Shown one piece after another: positions 19,261 through 64,000 of a DNA stretch of 64,000 nucleotides (positions are counted from its first letter, which is position 1; each line of letters starts with the position of its first letter). A program made the translations under genes and the position numbers. This stretch comes from the human T2T-CHM13v2.0 reference genome, Homo sapiens. Under the pieces are notes generated by a model, which was given only the letters and a program-made list of their open reading frames with translations, was not told the origin of the DNA and searched no databases. The stretch is taken from NCBI GenBank assembly GCA_009914755.4, contig CP068257.2:39520001-39584000 (forward strand), read 5' to 3'.

Positions 19261-20099
19261 TGGGGTCTCTGAGCTTGGGGTGGTCAGGGAAACCTTCCTG
19301 TGTGCACCAGGACCTGGTGAGGCTTCTCCAGCAGGAGGAGAAATGGAACCCGATATGAGCAGCTGTTGGGGAAAAAAGCCCAAGATCACTTTCAACAATG
19401 CAGTTGTGGAGCACAGGTCAAGGCTTGGAAGAATGGAGGATGCCACTACCTGAGTAACTAAGGAATGTTTCCTCATTTGTGGGGTGGTCACGGTGAAAGT
19501 ACCTTTGGGTTGTTGTGGGTTAGGAGAACCTAACTGCTGCAGCTGTCACATCTGCTACCCAGAAAGGGCTCTGAAGAGTTGCTACTGAAGCCCCTGATGA
19601 TACTGTTCATCCATCATACCCTGCAACGTCGTTATTTTAATATTGTAAGCTATTAATGCAGTAAAATACTTTATTCAAGTATTGAAATCATCTAAGCTTC
19701 CTATTCCCTAGAGATGCATGAATAACAGAGCTCTGATGCTTATTTAAGTTTGTATAGGATTTTACATTTTGCAAAATATTCTCAAATACAAAATCATCTC
19801 ATATCAGTTACCTTCCCCCACCACTGCCAATTAGTCTCTGGCTAGTGATGTAACCCTTATGTACCCCAGATTCCTCATCTGTTAAAATCAGGTTGATGGG
19901 AGGATTAAATGACTTAGTAAAGGTAAAGCGTTGGCATTTGTATACAGTAAGTGCTCAATAAATGTTAGCCAGCAACAATAAGTGTTGCTTCTCCGGGTAA
20001 GTTCTCTGCTTTACCTGAGATGCTTGGTCCTGGGGTTCCAGAGTCAGTCACCCTCATTGATAGAAGACAGACATGAAAGTGGGCCTGAGAACATGCAAA

Positions 20100-22085: not shown

Positions 22086-23255
22086 GAAAATGAAAACCAT
22101 AGGGAGTCAGGGAGTGCCTGGGCCAAGGCAGGGAGGAAGGGGCCTGGCTGTGACTGGAAATGGGAGGTGCCCTCTGGGCAAGGACTTGAGGAATTGTAGG
22201 AGTGTTCGTCCTGGAGCCATCCAGCAGGTAGCCTTCCAGGTAGAAGTAAGGGGCTGCAAGGAGGCCTTAAGGGTACAGCCCACCTGATCATTCCCCAGAG
22301 TCGCAATGAGGCTGGAGGCCTGAGGGGCTGGAGCAGAACAGATTGCAGTGGGAGAGCAAGGGGGCTTATGGACCACAGAGGGCCTCAAGGACCACTGTAA
22401 GATGCAGTCCCATGGGAACCATTGCAGGCTTTTAAACAGAGGAGGGACACTCTGTGCCATATTTTAACAAGATCACTGGGGCCGCTGGGCAGAGAACAGA
22501 CCATGGGGACAAGGGTGGAGGCCAGAGACCTGCTGGAGGCTGTGGCAGGTGAGGGAGGATGGGAGCTGGGGCCAGGTGGCTGTGGAGAGGTGAGAAGCGG
22601 TTGGTCAGTTTCTGGTAAAGGTCGAAGGTAGATCCAGCATGACTCCTGACGGCTGGATGTGTGGTGTGAGAAAAAGAAGAGTCAAGGGTGTCTCCAAACT
22701 GTGGTCTGAACAGCAAGAGGGACAGATGGGACCTGTGGCTGAGGTGAGGAGGATGGCAGGTAGGGAAGAGAGGGGATGACAGAGCAGAAATTCCATGTGG
22801 ATGCTGTAGAATCTGAGATGGATGTGAGGAAAGCCCAGTGGACTATCAAAGAGGCAGAGGGTATAAGAGTAGTGGGCATTCAGGAGAGGTCTGAGCTGGA
22901 ACTAAAACAGATGAGATATTTTGAGTCATGATTGAAATGTGGGTGAGATCCCCAGAGATCAACAATGGACGGGGCGCAGGAAAGAACCAGGGACTGCACC
23001 CTGGCATCTCCAGCACTAAGAAGTGGAGGAGAAGAGGAGGAACCCACAAAAGAACCTGCGAAGGAGGGACTCAGAGGAAAGAGAAAAACCAAGAGAAAGA
23101 CATTGCAGAAATCAAGAGAATGGAGTTAGAGTGGTCAGCACTGCATCAAATATTGCCAAGGGTTCAGGTCAGATGGGGACTGGGGTTTGAAGATGATTCC
23201 AAGTTTTATTCAAGAACTAATATAAAATACTCCATTCTGGAGTTTGCAGCCAAAG

Positions 23256-23551
<296 letters not shown>

Positions 23552-41791: not shown

Positions 41792-42178
<387 letters not shown>

Positions 42179-46784: not shown

Positions 46785-47072
46785 GGCTGGGTGTGGCGGC
46801 TCCATGGCTATAATCCCAGCACTTTGGAAGGCCGAGGTGGGAGGATTGCTTGAGGTTAGGAGTTCAAGATCAGCCTAGGCAACATAGCAAGTCCCTATCT
46901 ATATAATTTTTTTTTTAAATTAGCCAAGCTTGGTGGTGCATGCCTGTAGTCCCAGCTACTCAGGAGGCTGAGGCAGGAGGATCACTTGAGCTCAGGAGTT
47001 CAAGGCTGCAATGAATTACGATTGTGCCACTGCACTCCAGCATGTGCAACAGAGCAAGACCTTGCCTCAAAA
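46785..47072 (+). mobile_element. Alu SINE (sense)
   Basis: ggctgggtgtggcggctccatggctataatcccagcactttggaaggccgaggtgggaggattgcttgaggttaggagttcaagatcagcctaggcaacatagcaagtccctatc ... attgtgccactgcactccagcatgtgcaacagagcaagaccttgcctcaaaaca. Confidence 0.9.
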
Positions 47073-47397: not shown

Positions 47398-47925
47398 GAG
47401 GGTGTCAGGGTGAGGAGTGAGGGTGTCAGGGTGACTGAGGGTGCCAGGGTGAGGAGTGAGGGTGTCAGGGTGAGGAGTGAGGGTGTCCAGGGTGAGGAGT
47501 GAGGGTGTCAGGGTGAGGAGTGAGGGTGTCCAGGTTGAGTGAGGGTGTCCAGGATGAGGAGTGAGGGTGTCCAGGGTGAGGAGTGAGGGAGTCCAGGGTG
47601 AGGAGTGAGGGAGTCCAGGGTGAGGATTGAGGGTGTCAGGGTGAGTGAGAGTGTCCAGGGTGAGGAGTGAGGGTATCCAGGGTGAGTGAGGGTGTCCAGG
47701 GTGAGGAGTGAGGGTATCCAGGGTGAGTGAGGGTGTCCAGGGTGAGTGAGGGTGTCAGGGTGAGTGAACGTGTCCAGGGTGAGTGAGGGTGTCCAGGGTG
47801 CAGAGTGAGGTGTCCAGGGTGAGGAGTGACGGTGTCTGGGGTGAGTGAGGGTGTCCAGGGTGAGGAGTGAGGGTGTCAGGGTGAGTGAGGGTGTCCAGGG
47901 TGAGTGCACATGTGTGGTGAGGAGG
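47398..47925. repeat. Minisatellite: about 23 copies of a 22-23 bp unit (gggtgtccagggtgaggagtga), about 530 bp
   Basis: Head-to-tail array ...gggtgtcagggtgaggagtgagggtgtcagggtgactgagggtgccagggtgaggagtgagggtgtcagg... with the variants gtgagtgagggtgtccaggg and gtgaggagtgagggtatccaggg. It produces the 150-aa pseudo-ORF on the minus strand. Confidence 0.9.
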
Positions 47926-48215
47926 TGTTTGCAGTGCTTCAGGCGCAGCAACTCTTTCATCTAGTTTAAAATTGTGCTCTGAGGTTAGATTTTAGTAGAA
48001 CAAAGGCCTTACAAAGAATGTGAAAACATTGTGCTTCCCTGCTTACAGGCAATTAAAAAGGAGAATCAAGCTGAGGGTGCCTGGTGTGGGGTGGGGTGGA
48101 GAAGACCACAGAGACTATTGTGTGTTTTATTCAACAGTGTCCTGGGCTGCTTTCTCCAGAAATGTCCCTGACACATGGATGTAAGTGTGGCTAGTTTACT
48201 GGGAGATGATCCCAG

Positions 48216-48661
48216 TGATGCAGGACAGGCGAGCCCTAAGATTGAAGCATAGCCCGGGAGGGTTCTTAGCTTTGCCCAGGAAGGAACTCAAGGGCAAGCC
48301 AGTGGTGTTAGCAACTTTTATTGAAGCGGCCGGCTGTGCACAGCAGCAGCAGAGGCGCTGCTCCTTGCAAAGCAGGGCTGCCCTACAGGCTGTGCGCCCA
48401 CAGTAGCAGCTCAGAGGCAGTTCTGCAGTGGTATTTGTATCCACTTTTAATTATATGCAAATGAAGGGGCAGTTTATGCAGACATTTCCAGGGTGAGGGT
48501 GGTAACTTCTGGGTGCTGCCAGAGCCATGGTGAACTGACTTGACACAGGTCGGTGTGTCCTATGGAAACTAGCATCTGCCCTGGACCTATTTTAGCTAGT
48601 GCTCAGTTTGGTCTGAGTGCCTGAGCCCCACTTCCAGAGTTGAGTCCCACCTCCTACCTCA
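48216..48661 (-). mobile_element. 3' LTR of the class I ERV
   Basis: Aligns along its length with 54934-55415. On the minus strand it begins tgaggtaggagg and ends ...cctgtcctgcatca. Confidence 0.8.
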
Positions 48662-48672
48662 TTCCCCCTTCA
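48662..48672 (-). other. Polypurine tract (PPT) immediately 5' of the 3' LTR
   Basis: The minus strand reads tgaagggggaa|TGAGGTAGG: a purine run abutting the LTR start. Confidence 0.65.
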
Positions 48673-50472
48673 GAGATTAGATACTCCTCCTTAATCTTAA
48701 GGGGGCTGCAGAAGGGCGGAGATCTGTTTTCCGTAACTACTTCCTGCTGAGTTTATGGACGTAGGCCCTGCCTGGCACTGGAGGAGTAAAAATCTCTGGA
48801 TACCTGATCTAAGGAGCCCAGAGGCAGGACGATTTCATTCTCCGTGTCAGTGGACAGGATGGGCTGGAAGCCTTGTGCCAGCATTGTCTCTGGAACTGTG
48901 GTAATCTAGAATACACAAACTTTACTAAGAGGTTAAAGAAGCAAGGACCAAACATTTGTAACAAGACAGTTGTCAAAGGTCCTAGAAGAGGTGAAAAACA
49001 GGTGAGACTTGGGAAGGCACTTTTGATGGTTGACCAGATATAGTTGGGGGCAGTGCCCTGGTTATATCTATGTAACTAGGTAGCTTGCTCATAGATCTTT
49101 TGAATGTTAACCTCAACCTGTCCAGAGTTAATATATGTGCAGCAGGTTTTATTAATAACTGCACAAGACCCCACCTTGTTCAGCTAGTAAATAATCCAAT
49201 GCTAGTCTGTTATCAACAACTACATTTTCCAGAGTCTGGGGAACTCTTGAATTCTCTTTAATGCCTGATCTCCGTTGGTGGCTAAGGATTCTAGGATTTG
49301 AGCCAAGTTCTTTAGCGTTAACTCATGGTAGGCAAAGCCACCCCAGGGTGCTGCTAGTCCTATTGCCACCCTGATTCCTGCCAGAATTAGTTTTATTGCT
49401 TACTTATTTCTGATATTCTTGGGTCCTAGGCGTTATAGATTGTGACCCCTGGAGGGGTAAGAGTGGCCAACGTTCATTCATGTCAGTTCCAAGTTTTTTA
49501 GATACAAGGGAAAGCTATTCCTTAAAGAAGAGGTGACTCCTTAGGGAGTTGGAGTGGTTACAGGGTGTGACTTCTTCCCATTCATAGTCACAAACAAAAA
49601 TGAACCCAACTAGGGCACCAAGAGAAGCCCTGCGGGGTGCGATGTTTATACTTCATTGCCAGGTTGGGTCTATAGAGATATTTTCCACCTGTTCTCATGG
49701 TGGTGGTTGAACAATCTTTGTTTTCTAGAAGAAGGTAGTACTGTCACCTTCCCAGATCAGGCAGTTGTTTTTCCTTTGTATGTTCCCATCCGGGAGAAGG
49801 TACCATATATGGTCTTTTCACTCACAAATGGAATCTCATTTACCTCCCCGTGGTCTTGGAAACTTGGCAACTAGAGTTGGACCAGAGCATCGCAGGGAAG
49901 CTTCCACTTTTGTGTCATTAATGCAAGAGTGGATGCAAATGTTAGAGTTATGAGTGCACTGGAGATATAGATGCCCAACTTCCCAGATTCCGATAATAGT
50001 GGTCAGGGCAGGGGGACAGCAGGGTCCAGGGGGGATCCACTAAGTGGGGAAGAGTTCCACTTCACAATAGGGGTTTGGGTATTTTGGGGTGCTATGGTTA
50101 GTTAGGAGGTCTGGGGACATGGTCCTGAGATTTTCCAGATAGGTCGGAAGATGAAACTGTCTATCCTGGGGGTGTTGATGACAAATCTGGCAGCCATAAA
50201 GATGATTCTATGATGCTATAATTTTTGAAATATTTACTGTAGAATTTTGTCCACCCTCCCTGTCCACATACACACTAGCTTAGGTTAATTAGAAGAGCAA
50301 ACAGAATTAACAGTGGCATCATGGTATCTGGTTGGGTCTTAGAGTAGCTTCTATACCCAACAAGCCCACAGGAGATGTTTCCCAGGAGGAGGTGGCTGGT
50401 TAAAGCCATAGAAAGGAAGTACTACAGTCAGGAAGAAGAGCAAGATCAATGCTCCTATTCCCATCTACAGCA

Positions 50473-50694
50473 TTACATTACCTCTTCTGGCTGAGTGTTG
50501 ATTATTTTAAATAGGTAGCAGAGGTCTTCCAAAGCTTTACTGATATTGGTTGTGGTTGTAGTGCCCTTCCTTTGTGCCTGTGACTCATAAGAAACAGGTT
50601 TAGTCCTGGATCTGTGTGCCCAAGTAGGTGTTCCCTGAAGTTTAACAGCAGTGGGGGTACTTAACAATACCTGATAAGGCCCCTTCCATTTCAT
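50473..50694 (-). pseudogene. Integrase C-terminal domain remnant (pol 3' end)
   Basis: The translation WKGPYQVLLSTPTAVKLQGTPTWAHRSRTKP matches the conserved gammaretroviral IN C-terminus motif WKGPY.VLLTTPTA.KV.G...W.H.S..K. Confidence 0.75.
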
Positions 50695-52347
50695 TGTAAT
50701 TGATTCTTGGGGTATCCCTGTCTTTACCCTGTCTTTAAGGTTTTAGCAAGACTAAGTCTCCTGGTTGAACCGGGGAGCTATTTTTTCCTTTGTGGGGAAG
50801 GACAGTATTTTATTTTTATATTGGAGGGCCTTTTGAACCTGTCCTAAATTCTAAAGGGGAGGGGGGAAGGTTCATATAGGTAATTACTACAAGCCAAGAC
50901 CACAGCAGCTCAACACATAAAATCCATAGACAAATCAGTTTTACAACCCCATTTCCTGGCTTCTAGTTCTTGGCTTCCATACTGCTCAAAAGGAGTTCAA
51001 GGGCCAATGAGTGCCCGCCCACCTCCACACTCATGCACTGTGCAGATGACTTACACAGACCATCTACAACATAGCTGAATTTCCTGACATGTTCTATACT
51101 ACCTCTTTCTTAAAGTTATTTTACTCTAGGATAGGGAATTTACTATACAGGATTCCTCCACATATAAAATTACTCTTTCTTTATATCCTTCCTTGCAAAA
51201 CAAACAAAAAATACATTTTCTATTCATAATATTCTTTACATCTCTCTTTTCTACTCACTGGTTCACTCATGTTTTGAACCTCCCATTTAGTAACTTCCGG
51301 ATTAGACAAAAAATTTTTTCTCAATAAAGAATACATTTCTTTAGCACATTTTATGGAAACCTAGGAAGGAAGAAGTCATGAACTTCACACTAGACATTGT
51401 CATTCTATAACTGAGAACCATTCTACCATTTTATGATTTTAAACCACACATTAAGCATATCCCATTTACGTGTATTTAATTATTTCACTTTTAACTTTAT
51501 CTAGATCACCGAGAACCAAGGTACCATGCAAAGCTGGTCACCATTTAAAGCCATTTTAACCATTTTAAAGCCTATGAACATCAGTGACTTACCTAGGTAA
51601 AAATCCTAAAGTTAAATTTTAGAAGATACAAGATTCTCTTCAAACTAATAAGCTTTCAGTAGTCTTATTTGTTGAATGTATGAGTGTTCTTTTATCTATA
51701 AGCCAGTTTGACAGCACGCTAGATGTAACACACATCACAATACATGTACATATACCCAAAAACATATTAAATAAAATGACCTATACAAGACAACTGGATT
51801 CAAGTTATTTACAGAACTGGGACCCATCTACCTGGCCAAATTTTGTTTGCCCCGATAGGTATGGAAAACAGGAAAAGGCAGGACAGGGAATCCCATAGCA
51901 TCAACTAAAAAGGGGAGGAAGCAAACTGCATTGCTCAAAAGGAGATTCTGGAGTCCCCACGCCACTGGAGAGCACACTCAGTGGTGGAAATACCAAAGAA
52001 AAATGTTCAGGCGGCTGCTTATCTGCCACTGTGGAAAGCTGTCCTCTGGGACAGTAAACTTACTTGAGCTAAGCAGCTCACTGGGGCTAGTAGGAGAAGG
52101 TTAGCTCTAGTATTGATGGAAGCTTTTTGTTGTTATTGTTCTCTCTCACCAGAGCAGTTAGGACATTTGCATTGCCAGGGGCCCTTTTGCGTATAGTAGG
52201 CGCAGTGATTCTGGCCCAGGGGTCAGCAAGTCAGGCATCAAGTCTTGTCTAGGCATCCCAGATGCTAATTTTGTAACATTTTCTCAAGATGAGTAATCCT
52301 GAGGGGCAAGGAGGCTTAAAGTCACTGTTAACAATTGTACTTTTTGG

Positions 52348-52650
52348 CTATTTCTTTTTACTCCCCTCTTTTGCCCTGTCCCTGTTGTTGTAAACTTTAA
52401 AGGCTATGTTTAAGCGTCGTTTCATAGGACTTGAAGGTCCCATTGCTGCTTTTTGTAGATTCCTCCTAATGTCAGGAGAAGATTGAATGAGAAAATGTAT
52501 ACCCAGGAGAGCTTGCCCTTCTGGGGTGTCTGGGCCTGCATTAGTATATTTCCTGAGTGCTTCAACTAAAAGACCCTGAAACAGAGCGGGATTTTCATCT
52601 TTTCCCCGAGTTACTTCTTTAACCTTGTCATAATTGACTGGCTTAACCAC
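52348..52650 (-). pseudogene. Gag capsid (CA) C-terminal region remnant
   Basis: TRGKDENPALFQGLLVEALRKYTNAGPDTPEGQALLGIHFLIQSSPDIRRNLQKAAMGP...AFKVYNNRDRAKEGSKKK resembles HERV-W/MLV-type CA (QGK.EN..AFL.RL.EALRK.T...PD...GQ.IL...FI.QSA.DIR.KL.K), recalled from memory. Confidence 0.75.
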
Positions 52651-53049
52651 ACACTTTTTCCTCTACTTTTTTTTCCCCACAGCACAGCAAGCGGATGACA
52701 ATATTTGTAAATCGTGGCAATTTGAAGAACATAGTCAACGTAACAAACTCTTGTATAAGCTTTTCTGGTTTATCTGAAAACTGGCCAATTCTTTCCTTTT
52801 ATAAGGTCTAATTAGACATGGAAAGTGGCATATGTACTCTTTGAGTGTTCCCTCATTTCCATCAACTACTTTCCACAGTGGACACAGGCTTGACCTTAGG
52901 GGCTGATATGGAGCCCCACTCCTGGTGTACTGGTTGGGCTCATTTTCTTGGGCAGCAGAGGGTATAGGCTAGGGCTAGTTGGATAAGGGGGAAAGGTGCC
53001 TGATGATATTGGGGTGGAATCTCATTAGGGAATTGGCGAGAACCCCCAC

Positions 53050-53427
53050 TCAGGACTGGGGGACTGAAGAGACTCTGGGGAGGCTTATGAACTTTCTATG
53101 GGGAGCAGCTAGGTGGGGATCCCTTATGCATGGCATTCTAATGCCTGGAAGTAACGTGATCCAGTATAGAGCCATAAAAGCCTGTACATAAGGGATCTCT
53201 TCCCATTTTCCTTCTCTTTTACAAAATAAGCCTAATCGTAAAATATCACTATAGTATATAGAACCATGTTTAGGCCAGATATATTCGTCATCTAACTTGT
53301 ATTTAACCCAAATGGTGTTGCAATACAAAATGAGTTTCTTTTTCTTTAAGCCAAATTTGAATTTGCTCCAATAGCTTAAAAGACACCCTAGCGGCGAGTC
53401 CCTTGGGATACTCCTTGTTGTCCCCAT
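53050..53427 (-). pseudogene. Gag matrix (MA) remnant
   Basis: MGTTRSIPRDSPLGCLLSYWSKFKFGLKKKKLILYCNTIWVKYKLDDEYIWPKHGSIYYSDILRLGLFCKREGKWEEIPYVQAF parallels HERV-W Gag MGN...TPLRCILENW...LRKKRFIFFCSTAWPQY...[34 protein letters not shown] (recalled). Confidence 0.8.
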
Positions 53428-54911
53428 GCCTATATTAAGGATCTCTCTACAGAGGGTTTTATTAGCCCAAGTTTAGCAAAAGCCTAGTTACTCTTCCCTC
53501 TTAAATTCCCGTGTTCTTTAAAGGTGTAAATATAGATAGCAAGGTGTTATAAAAATGGATTATGAGCTACGAATGGGCAGTCGAATGTGGAGCCTAAATT
53601 CCATAGAGATCTAGAGTTGGGTGGAGAGGGGGCTAAACAAATGGAGGAAGGGAAAGGGGTAAACAGCGTTGCCCAAGGGGAGACCTCAGAGGCTCTGACT
53701 TGCTGAAGAACCTACCCAGTAGTGGAGATACTGAAAAAAATATTGGGCTGGCCACTTGTCTACCACTGTAGGTGGCTGACTGCCAGGCCAGGAGCCTGGG
53801 AGCTCCCAATTCCTTTGACCAAGAGCAGCTTAGGCAAGGGAGTTATAAGACAGTACACAGGAAGGAGCTTGCAATTGGCTATTAGGAAAATAATACTCCT
53901 AACTTCAGGGTGGAAAAAGACAAGACCAATATTCGCCTAGCGAAAGGGGTATAACCCACAATCCTAGAGGAAATGTCAGTGCTAAAAACCCCAGAGCATC
54001 TGGAGGGTGGCCTATAATACCGATGCTGAGAACCCAAAATGCCTGCGTTTCAGCCAACAAGGATGCCCTCGCCAAAGCAGCTGTGCACAGCAGTGCCAAA
54101 AACCCTGGGGTACCCAGTGGGCGGCCAACCCCGTGAACCCAAGACCAGGTTACAGAACATAGAACAACGTGACAACGTGACTCTGGTATCCCAGAGTCAA
54201 CACAACAGGGGACCTCTCACAACCAAGTGTCCTGCCTTAAACAATTGCCCAAATACAATTAACAGAAAGTCGAAAGCAAACATAAGACTCCAAACAAGAC
54301 ATACATGTTAGGACTGAAAATGAAACCAAAGTGGAGCAATAAAATGGAGTCAGAGGAGAAAGAACCAGGTGAAGGGGTGGCAAGAATGTGCTTCAAGGCA
54401 CCTAAACCGTGGGGAACTGACCGCTTAGCCAAAGGCTTTTATTTCCTAGCTTACCTGATATTACTGGGGGAGGGTGCAAAGGGGACTCTCACCCATCCAC
54501 AGAAGACAAAATGGCACCAGCCAGTCTTCCACGTGGGACCCGGGTGCAGGTCTCTCTAGGTTCCCCAGCTTGGGGGTGCTCAGCTTCTGTGTCGGGGGCT
54601 GGCTCGTTAGAGCAGTGGGTCCCACACGAGGCAGCTGTACTATGGACACTTGGCTGTCCACTCAGTTTCACCACCTGCCAGGGAAAGATGATGGCTGTGA
54701 AAAGAGGCACTGGTTAGGGTTAGAGCTCGGTAGTGTTAGCAGCTCTTTATTGGTACTTCCTCAGTGTTACAGATCTTACATCCTCAATCACAGACTGCTT
54801 CACCGTCTCTTGCTGTCTTGCCAACTGCTGTCTCTTGTCTCTCACCAATTGCTGCCTCTCTGTCTCTGCTGTCTTGCCTCTCTGCCAATTGCCACCATCT
54901 CCGCTGTCCTT

Positions 54912-54930
54912 GTCCCTTTGCTGGTTGCCA
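54912..54930 (-). other. Candidate primer-binding site, decayed tRNA-Arg type
   Basis: The minus strand reads TGGCAACCAGCAAAGGGAC, 1 nt after the LTR-terminal CA. tRNA-Arg PBS TGGCGACCACGAAGGGAC (recalled) with both CpGs deaminated to CpA gives TGGCAACCACAAAGGGAC. The observed sequence differs from that by one inserted G. Confidence 0.5.
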
Positions 54931-54933
54931 GAT

Positions 54934-55415
54934 GATGCAGGACAGGCAAGCCCCAAGACTGGGGCTTAGCCTGGGAGAGTTCTTGGATTTGCCCAAAGAT
55001 TCAAGGGTGAGCTGGTGGTGTTAGGCAGCAGCTTTCATGGAAGCAGCTGTGCACAGCAGCGCCAGAGATGCCGCTCCTTGCAGATCAGGGCTGCTCCATA
55101 GGCTGTGTGCCCTGAGTAGCAGCTCAGAGGCAGTTCTGCAGTCATATTTATACCTACCTTTAACTATATGCAAATTAATGGGCGGTGTATGCAGATACTT
55201 CTAGGATGAGGGTGGTAACCTTAGGGCCATTGGGTCATTGCCATGGAAAGGGGTGGTAACTTCTGGGTGTTGCCATGGAAACGGTAAACCGACATGGCAT
55301 GCTGGTGGGTGTGTCCTATGGAAAACTGCATCTGCCCTGACCTGTTTTAGCTAGTGCTCAGTTTGGTCCTATGTCCAAGCCTTGCCTCTGGAATCAAGTC
55401 CCGCCTCCTGCCTCA
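54934..55415 (-). mobile_element. 5' LTR of the class I ERV (contains a ~40-bp internal duplication relative to the 3' LTR)
   Basis: On the minus strand it starts tgaggcaggagg and ends ...cctgtcctgcatca. It is homologous to 48216-48661, including gcagctgtgcacagcagc, ggctgtgtgccc..agtagcagctcagaggcagttctgcagt, tatatgcaaat and gagggtggtaac. Confidence 0.8.
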
Positions 55416-58042
55416 CCAGGAGTCGCAGGTAAGAGTGTGTGTCATGGAGGAGGTTATAAATGTGGGCCACTGAGACCCACTCCCCACTGGGGAACTCTGA
55501 GAGGTGACATCAGATAGATTCAGCTGTGCTGACTAGGGGGCAAGGCAGCTGGGCCTTATCACTCCCTCCTGCCAACCGTGGGTGGAGGGCAGCTCACAGG
55601 GGGTTCACTCTTCAGCGTTTCTGGCTCAATAGCTGGCCAAAGAAGCCATCTGCAGAGAGTCACAGGTGCTTGCATTAGAGGCTGTAGAGTCAAGTGCCCA
55701 GGAAGGGTGTGGCTGGCAGTTTGCTGTGGCTACTGTGTGCCTAGAACAACCACTGTGTGCTAGAACCATGGCTGGCACAAGTTAGGATGATATTTGAGGA
55801 ATGAAAGATCGAATATGTTCTACCACTGCACGTATTTGAGAGCATTATTTTGGCCCAGGAATCACAAAACAGAGTTTTAAAACTGTTCTTTAAAATCCTA
55901 ACCTGCTAGCAGGCTCTAGACTCTAACTCATGAAAGCCTCTGTGAGTTTGGAGTGTGCCTGTCATTGCTGTGTAGTTCCTTGAACTTTTATTGGAAGGTG
56001 AAGATGTGATGTGTAGATACTGAGCAAGAGAAAATGGTTGGGGGGCAAAGGGTGATCGTGTTTGAGGTTATAAACAACCACAAAACCGCCTTTGAGAGTT
56101 GAGTGCTCTGAACGTTAAGAGCTTGCAAACCCTTTAGAATGGCTGGGCTTTGTATGGTTGACTGGCAGCACAACAAAGTTGCAAGCAAGTGTTAAATTCC
56201 TGACCCACTACCACTTCCATGTAATCCATCAGGAAGTTTACCAAAGTATAGCTCCCACAGCTTTTGTATATATAAGAATTTACTACGTAGTAGTTCCTTT
56301 ATATTCTGTATAACGTCAGTTCTTAAGTACACACACATTTTAAAAGTACGTAATATTGTTATCATCCTTCCATTAGTCAATATACGTACATTTTGGTTTA
56401 ACCCTGTAGTCCAGGGGCAACTTCTATGATCCCTCCTTCTTGCTTTTTGCACCCAAATAGGAGAGAAGGCAGTGTCATTCAGAATGGTCGGGCTGCAGGC
56501 ACCTGTGGGCCGTGTTTATAGAGAGTGGAATCACTCTGTGCCCAGCAGAACCCACGTCTTCCCCTCCATGTCAGAGCTGGTGCTTCACTTGGGGCCTGCT
56601 CATCTCTGTATCCATGGACATATGCCTCATTGCCTGGGTTTATGAATCATGAGGCTAAGTAGAGAATTGAAAACAACTCCCAATATTTGTGTTCAGGCCT
56701 AGGGAGAGGCAGGGTGTTCCATGGTTGGCAGGCCTATGCAAACCACCCCAGAGTCCAAGGAAGCTGAGAGGCCGAAGAAGAGGCTGCCAAATCCAGTTTC
56801 TCAGAAAGAAATATTTAATAGGGACTTATGAATGGAAGTCATGCCTGTGTCTAGAGTGGTGGCAAGACGAGATGGTGGATTCCTACCCATCACCCCCCCA
56901 GACCCAGGGCTTACATACCATAGGGAAGGAATGTCTAGGGCAGTCGAAAAGGCAAGAATCCTATGTGAATCTGCCTAAGGGCAGGATTGCCTGAGCTAAG
57001 GGCAGGATTTACCAATAAGTACTTTCTCTTACATAAGGAACAATAGATAAGAGAAACCTTAGAAGCCTTCCAGGAACTGGGGTCAATCAGAAGTCAACAT
57101 GGTGGTGGGAATCCAAGGATGGAGTTGCTTTAGCCTCTCCACAGGGTCCTGCTCAACTTCAACCTTAAGCCTCATGTTCCAAGCCAGTGTCAACAGGATT
57201 CTTCCTGGGGCCACTGGGTTTTAGCACAGCCAATGGCACATTGGTTACCGTGGTTCCTTAGCCCTGTAATTGCATCAGAGGCCTGCCCAGAAGACTGATT
57301 GGAGGCCAGCAGTCTCGCTCCTGTGGCCAGGCAGCATCTTCTTGTGTCCCTCGAGAGTTTTGAAGGTATTTTCACATTATCTTCCCGATGCTGTTGATAA
57401 GTCTGATGCAATTGTAATTCCTGATTCACTGTATATGAACTGTTTTCTTTCCCTCCAGAAACATGTGAAGTATTCTTGACCTGGTATTTGGAAATTTCTT
57501 GTTGATGTGTCTTAGTCTGGATCTTTAAAAAAAAAAAAAATGCTGGGCACTTGGTGAATCTTTTCAGTCTAGAAACTCATAACGTTCATGTCTGAGAAAT
57601 TGTCTAGTAATTGCCTGTTCTCTCTTCTTGGACCTCCCATTATTCAGAAGTTGCACCTTCTAGTCTGGTCTCTCTGCTTCCCTTGTCTGTCTTTTTGGTT
57701 CTTCTCTCCATTTTCATTTCTGCCACCCACATTTTAGTTTTCAGGATCACTTTCTTTTTCTCTGAATGCTTCTGTTTTTGTTTGTTTTTCACCTTATTCC
57801 TGTTTCAAAGTTGCACATCTTCTTATATTTCTCTGAGAAAATTATGATTTTGCTTAACACTTGATTTCTGCTTCCTGCTTTTTATCTGTCTCCTCCAAGT
57901 TCCTTGTTTCAGTGTGTTTGTCATGGTCTTTGTGTCTCATGCTAGAGGCTTTCCTCACTATCTCATGATTATTGGCTGTCTGTTCATATTTAAAAGAGAA
58001 GCATTCAAATTTGATTGGAAGTTAAGGACTGTATGGAGACAA

Positions 58043-58545
58043 GGTATAGAAAATATTTTCATTGTTTTATTAGTCAGGGTTCTGTAGGGGAACAGAATAG
58101 GAGATAGATATAGATAATAGAGATAGAGACATAGACATATAGATAAAGGGGAGTTTATTAAGTATTAACTTACACAATCACAAGATCCCACAGTAGGCTG
58201 TCTGCAAGTTTGAGGGGCAAGGAGAGCCAGTCTGAGTCTCAAAACTGAAGAATTTGGAGTCCAGTGTTCAAGGGCAGGAAGCGTCCAGTACGGGAGAAAG
58301 ATGTAGGCTGGGAAGCTAGGCCAGTCTCTCCTTTTCACATTTTTCTTCTGCTTTATATTCACTGGCAGCTGATTAGATGGTGCCCTCCAGATTAAGGGTG
58401 GGTCTGCCTTCCCCAGCCCACTGCCTCAAACGTTAATCTCTTTTGACAACACCCTCACAGACACACCCAGGATCAATACTTTGTATCCTTCAATCCAATC
58501 AAGTTGACACTCAGTATGAACCATCACAAGTCCACCCCTCGTCAA
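58043..58545 (-). mobile_element. MLT2-like (ERV-L) LTR, probable 3' LTR of the adjacent ERV-L provirus
   Basis: The minus strand begins tgtgatggttcatactgagtgtcaacttgattgg (compare MLT2 tgtgatggttaatttcatgtgtcaacttgactgg) and ends ...ctacagaaccctgactaataaa (compare ...ctggagaaccctgactaatacag). Internal matches include ctgtgagggtgttgtcaaaagagattaacgtttgaggcagtgggc. The consensus is recalled from memory. Confidence 0.65.
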
Positions 58546-58902
58546 CTTGAACCCATACACATCTGAGATCATACATAATCTTCAAATAAAGACAATAATA
58601 AGGTCATAATTATGCCTAACATATTACAACTATTCTTTGTACAACCTGAAACACACCAGTCTCCAACCCAAATACTATTACATAAAGTTAACAATACTTA
58701 AATGCTGATTTGAAGTCAGTAAATCTTATGTCACATGCTAAAGGAAAAAGGAAATAAAATCAAGATATTTTCTTAGTACAAGTATAAACATGCACAAACA
58801 TGTTTTTAACAAAACAAGGAAAAAATACTCATGACAATTACAGTCCTCGTTTCTGCAGCTGGTCACGTGGTTGTAGCCGGTATTGATGACTGCCTTCTTC
58901 TA

Positions 58903-59187
58903 CTACCCATTCTGTATTCCCTTTGCCTTCAGCAAACACCTTGGCAGGTTGTGATTTTTTTTTCCTGGTGGAGTGACCCAAACCTTCATTCCTGAAGGGT
59001 CTGGGCCATTTCTAGTCCTGCCTGGATTGGGCTGTTGTAGTTTCCCATTGATCTTAATCACAGGGCATGGTAATACTAAGAGATGCCCTAATGGATCTCC
59101 TGTATTCCATGAGTACTCTTCCTTACCTCCATTGTGGAGTAGTAGACTGATTTCATCTTGATAGTCTGGGTCAATCACCCCGGCCAA
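58903..59187 (-). pseudogene. pol dUTPase domain remnant
   Basis: GVIDPDYQDEISLLLHNGGKEEYSWNTGDPLGHLLVLPCPV fits dUTPase motif 3/4 (G.ID.DYRGE...GDRIAQL). Confidence 0.65.
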
Positions 59188-59377
59188 CTGTAACTCCCAT
59201 CTTAGCCTGTTGACTTAAAGGTAGGAGGAGCCCAAAGTGTCCAGGTGGCAATCTGAACTTACAGTTTAATGGGATTGTTGTTGTGTCTCCTGGTGGCAGT
59301 GTTCCTCCCTCTGGAACTAAGACCTCTAGACCAACAGAACTTAATGTCATGGGAACAGGCAGCAAAAATTTTGCTAC

Positions 59378-60321
59378 TTAATCACTAGGGGTGATGGTGA
59401 GTGATGCCACTTCCACTTCCAACCCTTGATTCCTGGACCCGTGAATCCTGGCTATGGGAGAAACAGTACCATATATGGGACGCTGATTCAGAGCATACAC
59501 GGCCTTCTGGAGAACTTTGTCCCAGGCATGCAAAGTATTGTCACCTAGTTGGCATTGTAATTGTGACTTTAAAAGGCCATTCCAACATTCTGTCAATCCA
59601 GCTGCTTCAGGATGATGGGGAGAACATGGTGAGACCAGTGCATTCCATGAGAATGAGCCCACTGTCACACTTCTTTAGCCATAAAGTGAGTGTCTTGGTC
59701 AGAGGCAATGCTGTGTGGAATACCATGACGGTGGATAATGTATTCCGTGAACCCACGGATGGTAGTCTTGGCAGAAGCATTGTGTGCAGGATAGGCAAAC
59801 CCATATCCAGAGTAAGTGTCTATTCCAGTGGGAACAAACCTCTGCCCTTTCCATGATGGAAGAGTTCCAATATAATCAACCTGCTACCAGGTAGCTGGCT
59901 GATCACCCCTAGAAATGGTGCCATATTGAGGACTCGGTGTTGGTCTCTGTTGCTGGCAAACTGGGCACTCAGCAGTGGCCATAGCCAGGTCAGCCTTGGT
60001 GAGTGGAAGTCCATGTTGCTGAGCCCATGTGTAACCTCCATCCCTGCTACCATGGCCACTTTGTTCATGGACCCACTGGGTGATGACGGGGGTGGCTGGG
60101 GAAAGAGGCTGAGTGGTGTCCACAGAAAGGGTCATCCTATTCACTTGATTATTAAAATTCTCCTCTGGTGAGGTCCCCCGTTGGTGAGCACTCACATGGG
60201 ATACAAATATCTTCACAATTTTTGACCACTCAGAGAGGTCCATCCACATCCCTCTTCCCCAAATTTCTTTGTCACCAATTTTCCAATCATGCTTCTTCCA
60301 ATTCCCTGATGATCCAGCCAA
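59378..60321 (-). pseudogene. pol integrase remnant (HHCC zinc finger plus core), several frameshifts
   Basis: HEQSGHGSRDGGYTWAQQHGLPLTKADLAMATAECPVCQ forms an H..H..C..C zinc finger. It is followed by core-like fragments in ORFs 59820-60068, 59607-59804 and 59378-59668. Confidence 0.7.
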
Positions 60322-60774
60322 ACCATTGGCTACGGCCCATGAATCAGTGTATAATCACACAGCTGGCCATTTCTCCTTCCATGCAAAGTGCACAACCAGG
60401 TGCACTGCTCGAAGTTCTGCCCACTGGGAAGATTTCCCTTCACTGCTGTCCTTCATGGATGCCCTAGAAAGGGGCTGTAGTGCTGCAGCTATCCACTTTC
60501 GGGTGGTGCCTGCATATCATGCAGAACCATCTGTGAACCAAGTCCTAGTCTTCTCTTCCTCTGTCAGCTGATCATAGGGAACTCCCCACGAAGCCATCAG
60601 TGCAGGCTAAGGGAGAGAAGGCAGGGTGGCAGGAGTGGAGACCAGGGCATTTGAACCACTTCCTCATGTAACTTACTTGTGCCTTCAGGATCTGCTCGAG
60701 CCCAATCACGTATATACCACTTCCATTTGATGATGGAATGCTGCTGTGCATGACCCACTTTATGGCTAGATGGG

Positions 60775-61155
60775 TCAGAAAGTACCCAGTTCATGATAGT
60801 TCAGGTCGCATGGTGACTTGAAACATTCAGTTTCCACCAAAGCCCAGTAACAGGCCAAGAGCTCTCTCTCAGAAGGAGAGTAGTTATCTGAAGAAGATGG
60901 CAGGGCCTTGCTCCAATATTCTAGAGGCCTCCACTGTGATTCACCTATGGAGGCCTGCCAACAGCTCCAATCAGCATCCCTATCTGCCACTGACACCTCA
61001 AGCACCATTGGATCTGCTGGGTCGTATGGCCCAAGTGGCCAAGCAGCTTGCACAGCAGCCTGGACCTGTTGCAGAGCCTTCTCCTGTTCTGGACTCCACT
61101 CAAAATTGGCAGCCTTTCGGCTCACTCGATAAATGGGCTGGAGTAACACACCCAA
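60775..61155 (-). pseudogene. pol RT connection / RNase H remnant
   Basis: LGPYDPADPMVLEVSVADRDADW...WRPLEYWSKALPSSSDNYSPSERELLACYWALVETE, the RNase H-type TE..A motif. Confidence 0.65.
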
Positions 61156-62166
61156 ATGAGGAATGTGTTCCCTCCGAAATCCAGATAGGCATTGTGCTCT
61201 TTCTTGGTTGTAGGAGGGACTAAATGCAGCAACTTATCCTTCACCTTAGAAGGAATATCTTGACAAGCCCCACACCACTGGACCCCTAGAAATTTTACTG
61301 AGGTAGAAGGTCCCTGAATTTTAGTCATATTTATTTCCCATCTCCTGGCACATAAATGTCTCACCAATAAGTCCAGTGTGTTTGCTACTTCTTGCTCACT
61401 GGATCCAATCAGCATAATGTCATCAAACTAATGGACCAGTGTGATATCTCGTGGAAACGAAAAGCGATCAAGGTCTCTCCAAATAAGATTATGACATAAA
61501 GCCGGAGAGTTTACTGTCCTACCCCTGAGGTAGGACAGTAAAGGTGTATTGCCGGCCTTGCCAGCGGAAGGCAAATTGCTTCTGGTGGGCCTTATGGACA
61601 GGAATGGGGAAAAAGTCATTTGCCAAGTCAATGGCTGCATACCAGGTACCAGGAGGTGTGTTAATTTGCTCAAGCAATGAAACCACATCTGGTACAGCAG
61701 CTGCAATTGGAGTCACCACTTGGTTAAGCTTACAGTAACCCACTGTCATTCTCCAAGATCCGTCTGTCTTCTGCACAGGCCAGATGGGAGAGTTGAATGG
61801 GGATGTGGTGGGAATCACCACCCCTGCATCCTTCAAGTCCTTGATGGTGGCACTAATCTCCACAATCCCTTCAGGGATGTGATACTGTTTTTGATTTACT
61901 ATTTTTCTAGGTAGAGGCAGCTCTAATGGCTTCCATTTGGCCTTTCTCACCATAATAGTCCACACCCTACCAGTCAGGGAGCCAGTGTGGGGGTTCTGCC
62001 TGCTACTAAGCATATCTATGCCAATTATGCATTCTGGCACTGGGAAAATGACCACAGGATGAGTCCGAGGACCCACTGGACCCACTGTAAGTTGGACCTG
62101 AGCTAAAACTCCTTTAAGTACCTGACTTCCGTAAGCCTCTACTTTACTGGAGGACCACAGTGACAT
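61122..62166 (-). pseudogene. pol reverse transcriptase remnant (frameshifted across at least 3 ORF fragments)
   Basis: [27 protein letters not shown]...[56 protein letters not shown], and a post-YXDD segment [10 protein letters not shown]. Confidence 0.85.
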
Positions 62167-62348
62167 TTTGGGTCCTCTGGAATTAACGTCAGCTCAGAGC
62201 CAGTGTCCAGTAGTCCCTGAAATGTCTGATCATCTCCCTTTCCCCAGTGCACAGTTACCCTGATAAAAGGCCAGAGGTCTCTTTGGGGAAGGATGGGAGA
62301 AAGATTCACTGCATACATTGTCGGTAATGTAGTGGGGTCCTTCCTCAA
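62139..62348 (-). pseudogene. pol protease remnant
   Basis: [15 protein letters not shown] contains the retroviral aspartic protease active site D-T/S-G. Confidence 0.75.
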
Positions 62349-63770
62349 GGGGACCCGACCTCCCCTTCATTCAAGGGGTTCTGGGTCTGTAAACTAGCTC
62401 AAGTCTGGAAATTGATTGAAGAGCCATGATTCTCTGTTTTTATAATTCAAATTAGTGTTTTGGCCATTTGACCTAGAAGTTTTCTGCTTGTATAAATTAA
62501 GTAGGAATGCAGTGGGCTTCCTATCAATTTCACTTCTAGGAACACCATGATTAATTAACCAATGCCGGAGCTCTACACGAGCCAGACTGTTCTGATTGCT
62601 GCTTTGCCTCTGCTGTCCATTAGGGTAGCTGTGCCCACCTGACCTTATCATATCTAGTTTTTGAAACATGGCAGGGAAAATGATTCCACGTAACCTGACC
62701 ATATCAGCTGGGTGACTGAATAAAACACCTTCTCAGCTCGCTTTCCTCTGGCCTGAAGCTTTTTGCTGTAGCTGCTTTTGCAACAAAGGACACAGTTGTA
62801 GGCAGTGGATCCTAAATGGAGGTTTCCTGGGGGACTTTAGGGAAAGCTTATATTTTCCTGATAAAACTGTCAAGTGTGGCCAAGATAATACTTCCCCGTT
62901 TTCTGACTTTAATGAAAATACAAGGCCCTCAACAGAGATAGCTGACTTCTGACTTTGGGAGAGAGGTCAGGGAACAGCAGTGATGCTGTCGCTGATGTTT
63001 TTGAGCTATTGGTCTGATATCACTAGAGGCTTCCTTTACATATTTGAGCCATCCTAAATCTATAATTTTCTGTTTACTTGTAGCCAAAAATATTCTAAAT
63101 GTTTCACCCTCATACTTTTTGAGAAAAAAAAATAGCTTAATAATAATAAAGTACCTTAAGGCAATTTGCCATTCTTTTCCTTTCTTCAAAATCAGCAAAG
63201 CATGGCAGGACACATCTGAAAGTCTGTTTACTGTTGTTTTTGTTGATGTTATTGGCAGGCAGGGCACTTATTTCCAGCAGGGAAGAAGCGGACCCAGTTA
63301 AAGGGATCTAGACTCTGGTCGTCAGGAACGGGTCAAGGCCTTCACCATGAGAAGAGCACCAAAGGGAGTTAATATGGGGTTGACCAGAGGTAGGCAAAGG
63401 AAGGCCTGTGGGCCAAATCTGGCCAGCTACCTGTTTTTATAAATAAAGTTTTATTGGAACACAACCATGCTGGGGTTTGTTTCATATTTCCTGAGGCTGT
63501 TTTCACACTGCAATGGCAGAGGTGAGTGGTTGACACAGATGCCGTCTCACCAAAGCCTATGATATTTACTGTCTGGCCCTATACAGAAAAAGCTTGCTGA
63601 CCTCTGGGTTAGACTGTCAGGTGGTAGAGACTAAGGAGGGAGTGATAAGTCCCTGTTGGCCACCTGAGGTTTTGTCTGTGTCAGGAAGCTGCAGATGGGA
63701 GATGTCCAGGCAGTGGCTCAGAAGAACCCATGGAGGACCCATTAGGGGAAGGGTTGGTATGTGGACACCA

Positions 63771-63958
63771 GCCACGCCCAGGGTGAACCAGCTGTGCAGT
63801 CAAATACAGAACTTCCCGTCCCTTACACCTCCATTCTCTGTGTTTCAATTTTAGTGAAGTCAGCCACACCCAGAGTGAACCAACCGTGCAGTCAAATACA
63901 AAACTTCCTGCCCCTCACACCTCCATTCTCCCTGTTTCAATCCTGGTGAGGTCAGAGG
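63771..63958. repeat. Tandem duplication, 2 x ~94 bp (about 88% identical)
   Basis: ccacgcccagggtgaaccagctgtgcagtcaaatacagaacttcccgtcccttacacctccattctctgtgtttcaattttagtgaagtcag is followed by ccacacccagagtgaaccaaccgtgcagtcaaatacaaaacttcctgcccctcacacctccattctccctgtttcaatcctggtgaggtcag. Confidence 0.85.
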
Positions 63959-64000
63959 CACAGTCATGAGCAAGGTGGGGAAACAGCAGTAAATCCAACC

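What the first reader, a model, noticed from the sequence alone, without database searches (positions are those of the whole stretch)
58043..64000. ERV-L (class III) provirus remnant with pol-encoded dUTPase downstream of integrase, antisense, abutting the class I ERV
Minus-strand ORF fragments give the ordered Pol motifs:
- protease LLDTGSELT (62139-62348)
- RT ...IDLANDFF...FTVLPQG...NSPALCHNLIWRDLD...MLIGS (61122-62166)
- RNase H (60775-61155)
- integrase HHCC finger and core (59378-60321)
- dUTPase motif GVIDPDYQDE...GDPLGHLL (58903-59187)

A dUTPase fused after IN is the signature of ERV-L/HERV-L (spumavirus-related, env-less). An MLT2-like LTR in the same orientation at 58043-58545 sits about 360 bp past the dUTPase as the 3' LTR.

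The 5' part (gag, 5' LTR) is either beyond 64000 or disrupted. An unrelated repeat (63380-63610) and a 2 x 94-bp tandem duplication (63771-63958) lie where gag would be expected.

The LTR orientation rests on my recollection of the MLT2 consensus termini (tgtgatggtt...ctgactaatacag).
Basis: partly seen in the sequence, partly recalled or inferred. Interest (0 to 1): 0.5.

Follow-up and report, generated by a model that had tools for sequence, protein, structure and literature searches.

The report
Truncated HERV-L provirus in BACE2 intron
This is a dead, 5'-truncated copy of the well-known human endogenous retrovirus HERV-L (an env-less class III element whose pol ends in a dUTPase), lying antisense in intron 1 of BACE2, and it is an ordinary genomic fossil.

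Summary
On the minus strand of 58063-62627 lies a colinear retroviral remnant: the last ~97 codons of gag, protease (LLDTGSELT), RT, an RNase-H-like connection domain, RNase H, integrase (HHCC finger and core), dUTPase, the pol stop, 309 bp of non-coding spacer, a polypurine tract and a 466-bp TG...CA LTR. A frameshift-corrected translation (8 frameshifts, 8 stops) scores above the Pfam gathering cut-offs for RVT_1, RT_RNaseH_2, RNase_H, rve and dUTPase, in that order. It is 77% identical over 96% of its length to intact murine ERV-L Pol.

A dUTPase C-terminal to integrase and the absence of env are published hallmarks of ERV-L. The LTR aligns with the MuERV-L LTR at both ends and has the layout published for human MLT2A LTRs.

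Corrections:
- The LTR is 58063-58528, not 58043-58545.
- The true RNase H is at 60157-60549.
- The class I neighbour (the PLAC4 provirus, 48212-55415) is 2.6 kb away and does not abut.
- The 5' LTR, PBS and ~83% of gag are absent, not merely off-window. A public contig extending 2.7 kb past the window shows none of them.

The window is human chr21. Already known; low interest.

The parts
58063..58528 (-). 3' LTR, 466 bp, TG...CA termini, ERV-L/MLT2A-like. Internal landmarks (window coordinates): DUX4-like site 58491-58501, TGATCC 58470-58475, TATAAA 58352-58357, AG-rich stretch 58324-58352, GTAAGT donor-like site 58168-58173, AATAAA 58154-58159.
   Evidence: Alignment with the MuERV-L LTR: both ends and several internal blocks are conserved. 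Motif scan. The layout matches the description of MLT2A1/2 in PMC8559712.
58531..58540 (-). Polypurine tract (gaggggtgga) just upstream of the LTR.
   Evidence: Conserved with MuERV-L (caaggggtgga) in alignment A1.
58529..58837 (-). 309-bp AT-rich non-coding spacer between the pol stop and the LTR. It leaves no room for an env gene.
   Evidence: Sequence reading. Its 3' part is homologous to the MuERV-L 3' untranslated region.
58838..58840 (-). pol stop codon (TAA), at the same position as in MuERV-L (...QLQKRGL*).
59041..59362 (-). dUTPase domain at the C-terminus of Pol, split by one frameshift near 59186. Motif 3 (GVIDPDYQDE) is retained.
   Evidence: Pfam PF00692, 46.7 bits (cut-off 22) at aa 998-1105. 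Best solved match is FIV dUTPase 1f7d, E 1.4e-11.
59609..60069 (-). Integrase: HHCC zinc finger 59947-60069 and catalytic core (rve) 59609-59901. It carries two in-frame stops and one frameshift.
   Evidence: Pfam rve, 44.5 bits. Best solved match is prototype foamy virus integrase 3l2q, 52 bits. Coordinates.
60157..60549 (-). RNase H catalytic domain, with two in-frame stops.
   Evidence: Pfam PF00075, 49.3 bits at aa 603-733.
60819..61098 (-). RNase-H-like connection domain of RT (RT_RNaseH_2).
   Evidence: Pfam PF17919, 47-52 bits.
61278..61776 (-). Reverse transcriptase domain. The catalytic YIDD box is mutated to *FDD (stop at 61430).
   Evidence: Pfam RVT_1, 69.6 bits. Alignment to P0001.
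62014..62345 (-). Protease region, with active-site motif LLDTGSELT at 62187-62213.
   Evidence: The motif is identical to MuERV-L. The Pfam aspartyl-protease hit is only weak (E 0.06).
62370..62627 (-). C-terminal remnant of gag (equivalent to MuERV-L Gag aa 485-581). It ends ...PEPLE*, followed in the same frame by pro-pol, and has one internal stop.
   Evidence: tblastn with MuERV-L Gag: 47% identity, E 1e-18. Pfam DUF5535, 32.1 bits. Same-frame layout.

Best explanation
The region 58063-62627 (minus strand) is a degenerate, 5'-truncated provirus of the human ERV-L family (HERV-L, class III, env-less). It retains the tail of gag, pro, pol (RT, RNase H, integrase, C-terminal dUTPase), the 3' untranslated spacer, the polypurine tract and the 3' LTR. 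It lies antisense in intron 1 of human BACE2.

When active, such elements copied themselves inside germline or early-embryonic cells. The LTR promoter drove a genomic RNA. Gag and Gag-Pro-Pol were made from it, by read-through of the gag stop codon. RT/RNase H, primed by tRNA-Leu, made the DNA copy while the dUTPase kept dUTP out of it, and integrase inserted it. Because there is no env, the cycle is intracellular.

What is shown here: the domain order, the homology, the loss of every reading frame (8 frameshifts, 8 stops, a stop in the RT active-site box), the absence of env, and the absence of the 5' LTR, PBS and most of gag.

What is inferred: the past replication mechanism (from the family, not from this copy), and that a later deletion caused the 5' loss. 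This copy cannot encode any protein or transpose. The only part that could still act is the LTR, as a promoter or enhancer.
For: - Ordered Pfam domains above gathering scores on the stitched translation: RVT_1, RT_RNaseH_2, RNase_H, rve, dUTPase.
- 77% amino-acid identity over 96% of the length, and 79.6% nucleotide identity over 3.6 kb, to an intact 1124-aa Pol. That Pol's 90% identity cluster holds Mus musculus and Mus spicilegus entries, i.e. MuERV-L.
- The reference loci carry gag (581 aa), pol, a 493-bp LTR and a Leu-type PBS.
- The stitched Pol is colinear with the reference from the protease to the shared C-terminus ...QLQKRGL*.
- Only 309 bp separate the pol stop from the LTR, so there is no env.
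- The PPT and both LTR ends are conserved with MuERV-L.
- The LTR has the published MLT2A layout.
- Integrase is closest to foamy-virus integrase among solved structures.
- Literature: dUTPase C-terminal to IN is the ERV-L arrangement (PMC4531489; PMC1224870). ERV-L elements are ~6.5 kb with gag and pol, no env, an extra dUTPase and a Leu PBS (PMC3915180). MLT2A1/2 are the HERV-L LTRs (PMC8559712).
- Human origin: 104/104 aa identity to BACE2 exon 1 and an exact match to human PLAC4, Q8NAM4.
- 5' truncation: no gag upstream of ~62627 even at permissive settings. Nothing ERV-L-like appears in the 2.7 kb beyond the window on contig L008.
Against: - No RepeatMasker/Dfam run was possible, so the subfamily labels (HERVL-int, MLT2A1 versus A2 or another MLT2) are not formally tested.
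- The LTR body is only weakly alignable to the murine LTR outside the conserved blocks.
- The Leu PBS and the target-site duplication cannot be checked, because the 5' end is missing.
- RT scores about equally against gammaretroviral and foamy RT structures (137 vs 131 bits). The 'spuma-related' label therefore rests mainly on the integrase and on the literature.
- Human HERV-L gag might be too divergent from murine gag for tblastn to detect. This is unlikely, given that the gag tail is 47% identical.
Confidence: 0.95

Rival explanations
1. The provirus is full-length but interrupted. A large younger insertion entered gag at ~62627, and the rest of gag, the PBS and the 5' LTR lie more than 4 kb further on, beyond the equivalent of 66.7 kb.
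For: Nested insertions are common in old ERVs. The contig extension stops at about 66.7 kb, so more distant sequence was not seen.
Against: The 4 kb upstream of 62627 is a mosaic, not one element. It holds a 228-bp inverted-repeat-ended repeat with a second copy in the window, a 92-bp tandem duplication and an Alu. No retroelement protein signal appears in six frames.
Confidence: 0.05
2. It is a different dUTPase-bearing retrovirus: a class II (betaretrovirus/HERV-K-like) or lentivirus-like endogenous element.
For: Those groups also encode dUTPases. The closest solved dUTPases are lentiviral (FIV, EIAV).
Against: The position is wrong for both groups. Betaretroviral dUTPase lies N-terminal of the protease, and lentiviral dUTPase lies between RNase H and IN (PMC1224870; PMC4531489). 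Here it follows IN. The whole Pol is 77% identical to MuERV-L, there is no env, and the LTR ends match ERV-L.
Confidence: 0.01
3. The remnant is not inert. Its 3' LTR (MLT2A-like, with TATA box and a DUX4-like site) works as a promoter or enhancer in cleavage-stage embryos or placenta, for an antisense BACE2-intronic transcript or as an upstream start for PLAC4.
For: The LTR keeps a DUX4-like site (1 mismatch), TATAAA, an AG-rich stretch, a GTAAGT donor-like site and AATAAA. Hundreds of MLT2A copies are active promoters in 4-8-cell embryos (PMC8559712). The LTR is 2.6 kb upstream of the PLAC4 provirus 5' LTR and has the same orientation.
Against: Only about 360 of more than 5000 long MLT2A copies are active. 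Just one imperfect DUX4-like site was found, and no expression data were examined. This is compatible with the best explanation, not an alternative identity.
Confidence: 0.07

Closest known systems
HERV-L (human ERV-L; internal part HERVL-int with MLT2A1/MLT2A2 LTRs; Cordonnier et al. 1995, cited in PMC4531489)
   Same: Human host. Foamy-related pol with dUTPase after integrase. No env. The LTR shows the MLT2A layout (DUX4-like site, TGATCC near position 50, TATA, AG-rich region, splice-donor-like GTAAGT near 350). The 466-bp length is close to the 444-bp MLT2A1 consensus.
   Different: Nothing qualitative. This copy lacks the 5' LTR, PBS and ~83% of gag, and all ORFs are broken. The subfamily was not assigned by consensus alignment.
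MuERV-L / MERVL (mouse ERV-L with MT2_Mm LTR)
   Same: Colinear gag-tail/pro/pol/dUTPase. 77% amino-acid and ~80% nucleotide identity. The gag stop is followed by an in-frame pro-pol in both. PPT and LTR termini are conserved.
   Different: The mouse element is intact and active in 2-cell embryos, with a 493-bp LTR whose body is largely unalignable to this one. The window copy is a human fossil.
Spumaviruses (foamy viruses)
   Same: The integrase core is the best match among solved structures, and RT similarity is comparable to that with gammaretroviruses. This is the basis of the class III label.
   Different: Foamy viruses have env and accessory genes, a separate pol mRNA and no dUTPase. ERV-L has a conventional Gag-Pro-Pol read-through layout.
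Retroviral dUTPases of non-primate lentiviruses (FIV, EIAV) and betaretroviruses (MMTV, MPMV, HERV-K)
   Same: Same homotrimeric dUTPase fold family. Motif 3, GVID-DY--E, is conserved.
   Different: The genomic position differs: after IN here, between RNase H and IN in lentiviruses, and before PR in betaretroviruses. Motifs 1, 2 and 4 diverge from the canonical form even in the intact mouse ERV-L. No source read here reports a test of the ERV-L domain's enzymatic activity.

Membership tests
ERV-L (class III ERV; HERV-L/MuERV-L) | Pol homologous to ERV-L Pol across PR-RT-RNase H-IN | tested here: met
   2013 bits, 77% identity and 96% coverage to intact murine ERV-L Pol. 79.6% nucleotide identity over 3.6 kb.
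ERV-L (class III ERV; HERV-L/MuERV-L) | dUTPase domain encoded at the 3' end of pol, C-terminal to integrase | tested here: met
   Pfam rve at aa 819-915 and dUTPase at aa 998-1105 of the stitched Pol. The criterion comes from PMC4531489 and PMC1224870.
ERV-L (class III ERV; HERV-L/MuERV-L) | No env gene between pol and the 3' LTR | tested here: met
   309 bp of AT-rich non-coding sequence lie between the pol stop (58838) and the LTR start (58528). The criterion comes from PMC3915180.
ERV-L (class III ERV; HERV-L/MuERV-L) | Primer binding site complementary to tRNA-Leu | tested here: inconclusive
   The 5' end of the element is absent. No TGGTACCAG... site occurs in the window upstream region or in the 2.7-kb extension. 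The murine reference has one.
ERV-L (class III ERV; HERV-L/MuERV-L) | gag related to MuERV-L gag (Fv1-like), with its stop followed by in-frame pro-pol | tested here: met
   Only the last ~97 codons remain, at 47% identity and E 1e-18. The ...PEPLE*RGG.VPLRKD junction is the same as in the mouse.
ERV-L (class III ERV; HERV-L/MuERV-L) | Flanking LTRs of the MT2/MLT2 type with TG...CA ends, same orientation as pol | tested here: met
   The PPT plus TGTGATGG...TGTCAACTTGA start and the AGAACCCTGACTAATAAAACA end align to the MuERV-L LTR. Only the 3' LTR is present.
ERV-L (class III ERV; HERV-L/MuERV-L) | Target-site duplication flanking the two LTRs | not testable with these tools
   The 5' LTR is missing, so no pair of flanks exists to compare.
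MLT2A1/MLT2A2 LTR subfamilies (human HERV-L LTRs) | Match to the Repbase/Dfam consensus | not testable with these tools
No repeat library or RepeatMasker is available.
MLT2A1/MLT2A2 LTR subfamilies (human HERV-L LTRs) | Published layout: DUX4-like sites flanking a TGATCC/TAATCC hexamer near position 50, a TATA box upstream of an AG-rich TSS region mid-LTR, a GT donor near position 350, and a length of 444 bp (A1) or 549 bp (A2) | tested here: met
   TGATTGGATTG at positions 28-38 (1 mismatch), TGATCC at 54, TATAAA at 172, AG-rich stretch at 177-205, GTAAGT at 356, length 466 bp, compared with PMC8559712. A second DUX4-like site matches only with 2 mismatches (position 149).
Class III (spumavirus-related) retroelements | Pol closer to foamy viruses than to other retroviral genera | tested here: inconclusive
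   Among solved structures the integrase is closest to PFV IN (52 bits), ahead of HTLV and other integrases. RT scores 137 bits against MLV/XMRV and 131 against foamy PR-RT. No phylogeny was built.

The most novel reading that the evidence does not exclude
The surviving MLT2A-like 3' LTR of this truncated HERV-L lies 2.6 kb upstream of the LTR-driven, gag-derived placental gene PLAC4, in the same orientation. It could act as a DUX4-responsive alternative promoter or enhancer that switches on PLAC4 (or an antisense BACE2-intronic RNA) in cleavage-stage embryos.
Probability: 0.05. Interest if true: 0.35.

Novelty: already known. Interest (0 to 1): 0.07.

Why it matters
It matters little. HERV-L and its unusual post-integrase dUTPase have been described since the 1990s (Cordonnier 1995 and Bénit 1997, both cited in PMC4531489). 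MLT2A LTR copies number in the thousands in the human genome (PMC8559712), and standard repeat annotation is expected to mask this one. Beyond that it fixes the element's true limits. It also records that the element sits next to the PLAC4 provirus inside BACE2 intron 1, a placement relevant only if the LTR proves to be transcriptionally active.

Tried and rejected
- Rfam at gathering thresholds over the whole window: no hits, so no tRNA or 7SL clue.
- Self-comparison for a second copy of the LTR or of the 3' spacer in the window: none.
- A gamma-type Gag-Pol (P0036) used as a tblastn probe to map the class I neighbour: it only re-found the ERV-L pol. The class I identity rests instead on Gag_p30 and MLVIN_C hits and the LTR pair.
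- A scan of viral contigs for other HERV-L copies with a gag-tail/PR/RT query: nothing confirmed.
- Primary ERV-L papers (PMC191811, PMC104094) are not held.
- The MLT2A coordinate tables of PMC8559712 are not held.
- A search for papers linking PLAC4, BACE2 and LTR found none.
- Look-up of the 86-aa plus-strand ORF at 63594-63854: not on record.
- Contig L007 did not reach beyond the window.
The six frames were rerun as X-masked letters and gave no Pfam family.
- I considered weak visual similarity of 62630-62750 to MuERV-L Gag aa ~440-485 and rejected it as not significant.

Full report
**Observation.** The minus strand of 58.8-62.4 kb contains a chain of ORF fragments. I stitched nine fragments across 8 frameshifts, masking 8 in-frame stops, into a 1173-aa conceptual Pro-Pol.

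Individually, the fragments gave only partial Pfam hits. The stitched protein gave the following, each above its gathering cut-off:
- RVT_1, aa 191-355, 69.6 bits
- RT_RNaseH_2, aa 419-513, 47.1 bits
- RNase_H, aa 603-733, 49.3 bits
- rve, aa 819-915, 44.5 bits
- dUTPase, aa 998-1105, 46.7 bits

The protease gave only a weak profile hit, but it keeps the LLDTGSELT active-site motif. In window coordinates:
- PR motif 62187-62213
- RT 61278-61776
- connection domain 60819-61098
- RNase H 60157-60549
- HHCC finger 59947-60069
- integrase core 59609-59901
- dUTPase 59041-59362
- pol stop 58838-58840

The RT YIDD box reads *FDD, so the copy is catalytically dead.

**Relatives.** Against 5.8 billion proteins, the best hit (P0001) is an intact 1124-aa Pol with the same Pfam set. 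It scores 2013 bits, at 77% identity over 96% of the query. Its 90% identity cluster contains Mus musculus and Mus spicilegus entries, so it is murine ERV-L.

The next hits, at 36-41% identity, are dUTPase-bearing Pols from amphibians and fish.

Contigs encoding P0001 give a complete reference:
- gag, 581 aa
- pol, 1124 aa
- a 493-bp TG...CA LTR
- a PBS, TGGTACCAGGAGTGG, which I recognise as tRNA-Leu-type; PMC3915180 says MuERV-L has a leucine-tRNA PBS

The window matches this reference at 79.6% nucleotide identity from 62417 to the pol stop at 58838. The two Pols are colinear to a shared C-terminus, QLQKRGL*. In both, the gag stop is followed in the same frame by pro-pol (PEPLE*RGG.VPLRKD).

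**3' end.** After the pol stop come 309 bp of AT-rich non-coding DNA, so there is no env. The polypurine tract gaggggtgga (58531-58540) follows. The LTR starts tgtgatggtt at 58528 and ends ctgactaataaaaca at 58063.

Alignment with the mouse element shows several conserved blocks:
- the PPT and the U3 start, including TGTCAACTTGA
- internal blocks
- the AATAAA signal
- the U5 end

A paper on human HERV-L LTRs (PMC8559712) describes MLT2A1/2 as having:
- two DUX4-like sites around a TGATCC/TAATCC hexamer near position 50
- a TATA box upstream of an AG-rich start region mid-LTR
- a GT splice donor near position 350
- consensus lengths of 444 bp (A1) and 549 bp (A2)

This copy has:
- TGATTGGATTG at positions 28-38 (one mismatch)
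- TGATCC at 54
- TATAAA at 172
- an AG-rich stretch at 177-205
- GTAAGT at 356
- AATAAA at 370

That fits an MLT2A-type LTR, but no consensus alignment could be run.

**5' end.** Only the last ~97 codons of gag are detectable (62370-62627, 47% identity to MuERV-L Gag aa 485-581). Very permissive tblastn and blastn found nothing further upstream.

Upstream lie several unrelated features:
- unclassified AT-rich DNA
- a 228-bp repeat with 12/16-matching terminal inverted repeats (63382-63609) and a second, inverted copy near 32.5 kb
- a 92-bp two-copy tandem duplication (63769-63955)

An exact-protein look-up of the ORF at 62929-63267 retrieved L008, a 4120-bp contig from a human-gut metagenome. 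It is 100% identical to window 62570-64000 and extends 2689 bp further.

That extension has no ERV-L LTR, PBS or gag. It holds an Alu and gives no Pfam family in any of six frames.

A complete element would need only ~2 kb beyond 62627. The provirus has therefore lost its 5' LTR, PBS and about 83% of gag. A large nested insertion pushing them beyond 66.7 kb is not excluded, but it is unlikely because the intervening DNA is a mosaic of unrelated repeats.

**Context.** The ORF at 36596-36907 (+), followed by a GT donor, is 104/104 identical to the N-terminus of human beta-secretase 2 (PDB 6uj0). The ERV-L therefore lies 21-26 kb into BACE2 intron 1, in antisense orientation.

The 'class I ERV' next door is a minus-strand provirus:
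- LTRs at 48212-48661 and 54928-55415
- Gag_p30 and MLV-type integrase C-terminal remnants
- an intact 125-aa matrix-like ORF (53053-53427) that matches human PLAC4 (UniProt Q8NAM4) exactly

PLAC4 was recently described as a co-opted gag gene (PMC12679747). This provirus ends 2.6 kb from the ERV-L LTR, so the two do not abut.

[quoted passage not shown] They add that the elements have an extra dUTPase and a Leu PBS (PMC3915180). The dUTPase lies C-terminal to integrase, unlike in betaretroviruses and lentiviruses (PMC1224870; PMC4531489).

The features tested here came out as follows:
- Pol homology, dUTPase position, absence of env, gag-tail homology and LTR type: all met.
- Leu PBS and target-site duplication: untestable, because the 5' end is gone.

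Among solved structures, the integrase is closest to prototype foamy virus integrase. RT is about equally close to gammaretroviral and foamy RTs, and the dUTPase is closest to FIV and EIAV dUTPases.

dUTPase motif 3 is conserved. Motifs 1, 2 and 4 depart from the canonical form in both this copy and the intact mouse protein.

**Verdict.** The object is a typical, long-known HERV-L fossil. It has no coding capacity, and the only conceivable residual activity is LTR-driven transcription, which I could not test.

Noticed in passing
window 53053-53427 (-), within the provirus 48212-55415: An intact 125-aa matrix-like ORF (MGTTRS...) matches human PLAC4 protein (UniProt Q8NAM4) exactly. PMC12679747 describes PLAC4 as a co-opted gag gene but places it on chromosome 7, whereas here it sits in BACE2 intron 1.
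   Followed up: yes
window 35500-37200; coding part 36596-36907 (+): A CpG-rich block contains BACE2 exon 1. It is 104/104 aa identical to human beta-secretase 2 and is followed by a GT donor at 36908. This fixes the window as human chr21 (or a near-identical primate).
   Followed up: yes
window 62394-62702 (-) and L003 336-2078: Pfam DUF5535 ('family of unknown function') hits the ERV-L gag tail here (32.1 bits, above its cut-off of 25). It also hits the same region of intact MuERV-L Gag (aa 497-539, 21.2 bits). This suggests the DUF is built from ERV-L Gag C-terminal sequences.
   Followed up: partly
window 63382-63609 and ~32460-32640: Two copies, in opposite orientation, of a ~230-bp repeat with terminal inverted repeats (CAGGGGTTGGCA...-type ends) and a conserved core, ...CCAATAAAACTTTATTTATAAAAACAGG.... 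It looks like an old non-autonomous DNA transposon. From memory it resembles a hAT-type MER element; this is unverified.
   Followed up: partly
window 63769-63955: A 92-bp unit is tandemly duplicated (2.0 copies, 85% identical). It has no match elsewhere in the window and its origin is unknown.
   Followed up: partly
L008 1-2689 (equivalent to 64001-66689 beyond the window): A 'human gut metagenome' contig (ENA ERZ980513) is human host DNA from this locus. It carries an Alu at 2064-2355. On the opposite strand around 1185-1725, a translated stretch reads to me like the C-terminal end of an old L1 ORF2; Pfam gave no hit, so this is unverified.
   Followed up: partly
window 47432-47877: A G-rich minisatellite of ~19-22-bp units (GAGTGAGGGTGTCCAGGGTGAG...) lies just outside the 3' LTR of the PLAC4 provirus.
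   Followed up: no
window 7540-8160 and 18490-19490: Long pseudo-ORFs rich in His and Thr (HTHTH...) reflect CA/CACAT-type simple repeats, not genes.
   Followed up: no
window 41792-42085, 46803-47072 and ~23200-23335: Alu elements (GGCCGAGGTGGGAGGATTGCTTGAG...-type sequence), consistent with a primate origin. None reached an Rfam gathering score.
   Followed up: no
window 55416-58062: The 2.6-kb spacer between the PLAC4 provirus 5' LTR and the ERV-L 3' LTR has no internal repeats, no notable ORFs and no match elsewhere in the window. Its nature was not determined.
   Followed up: partly
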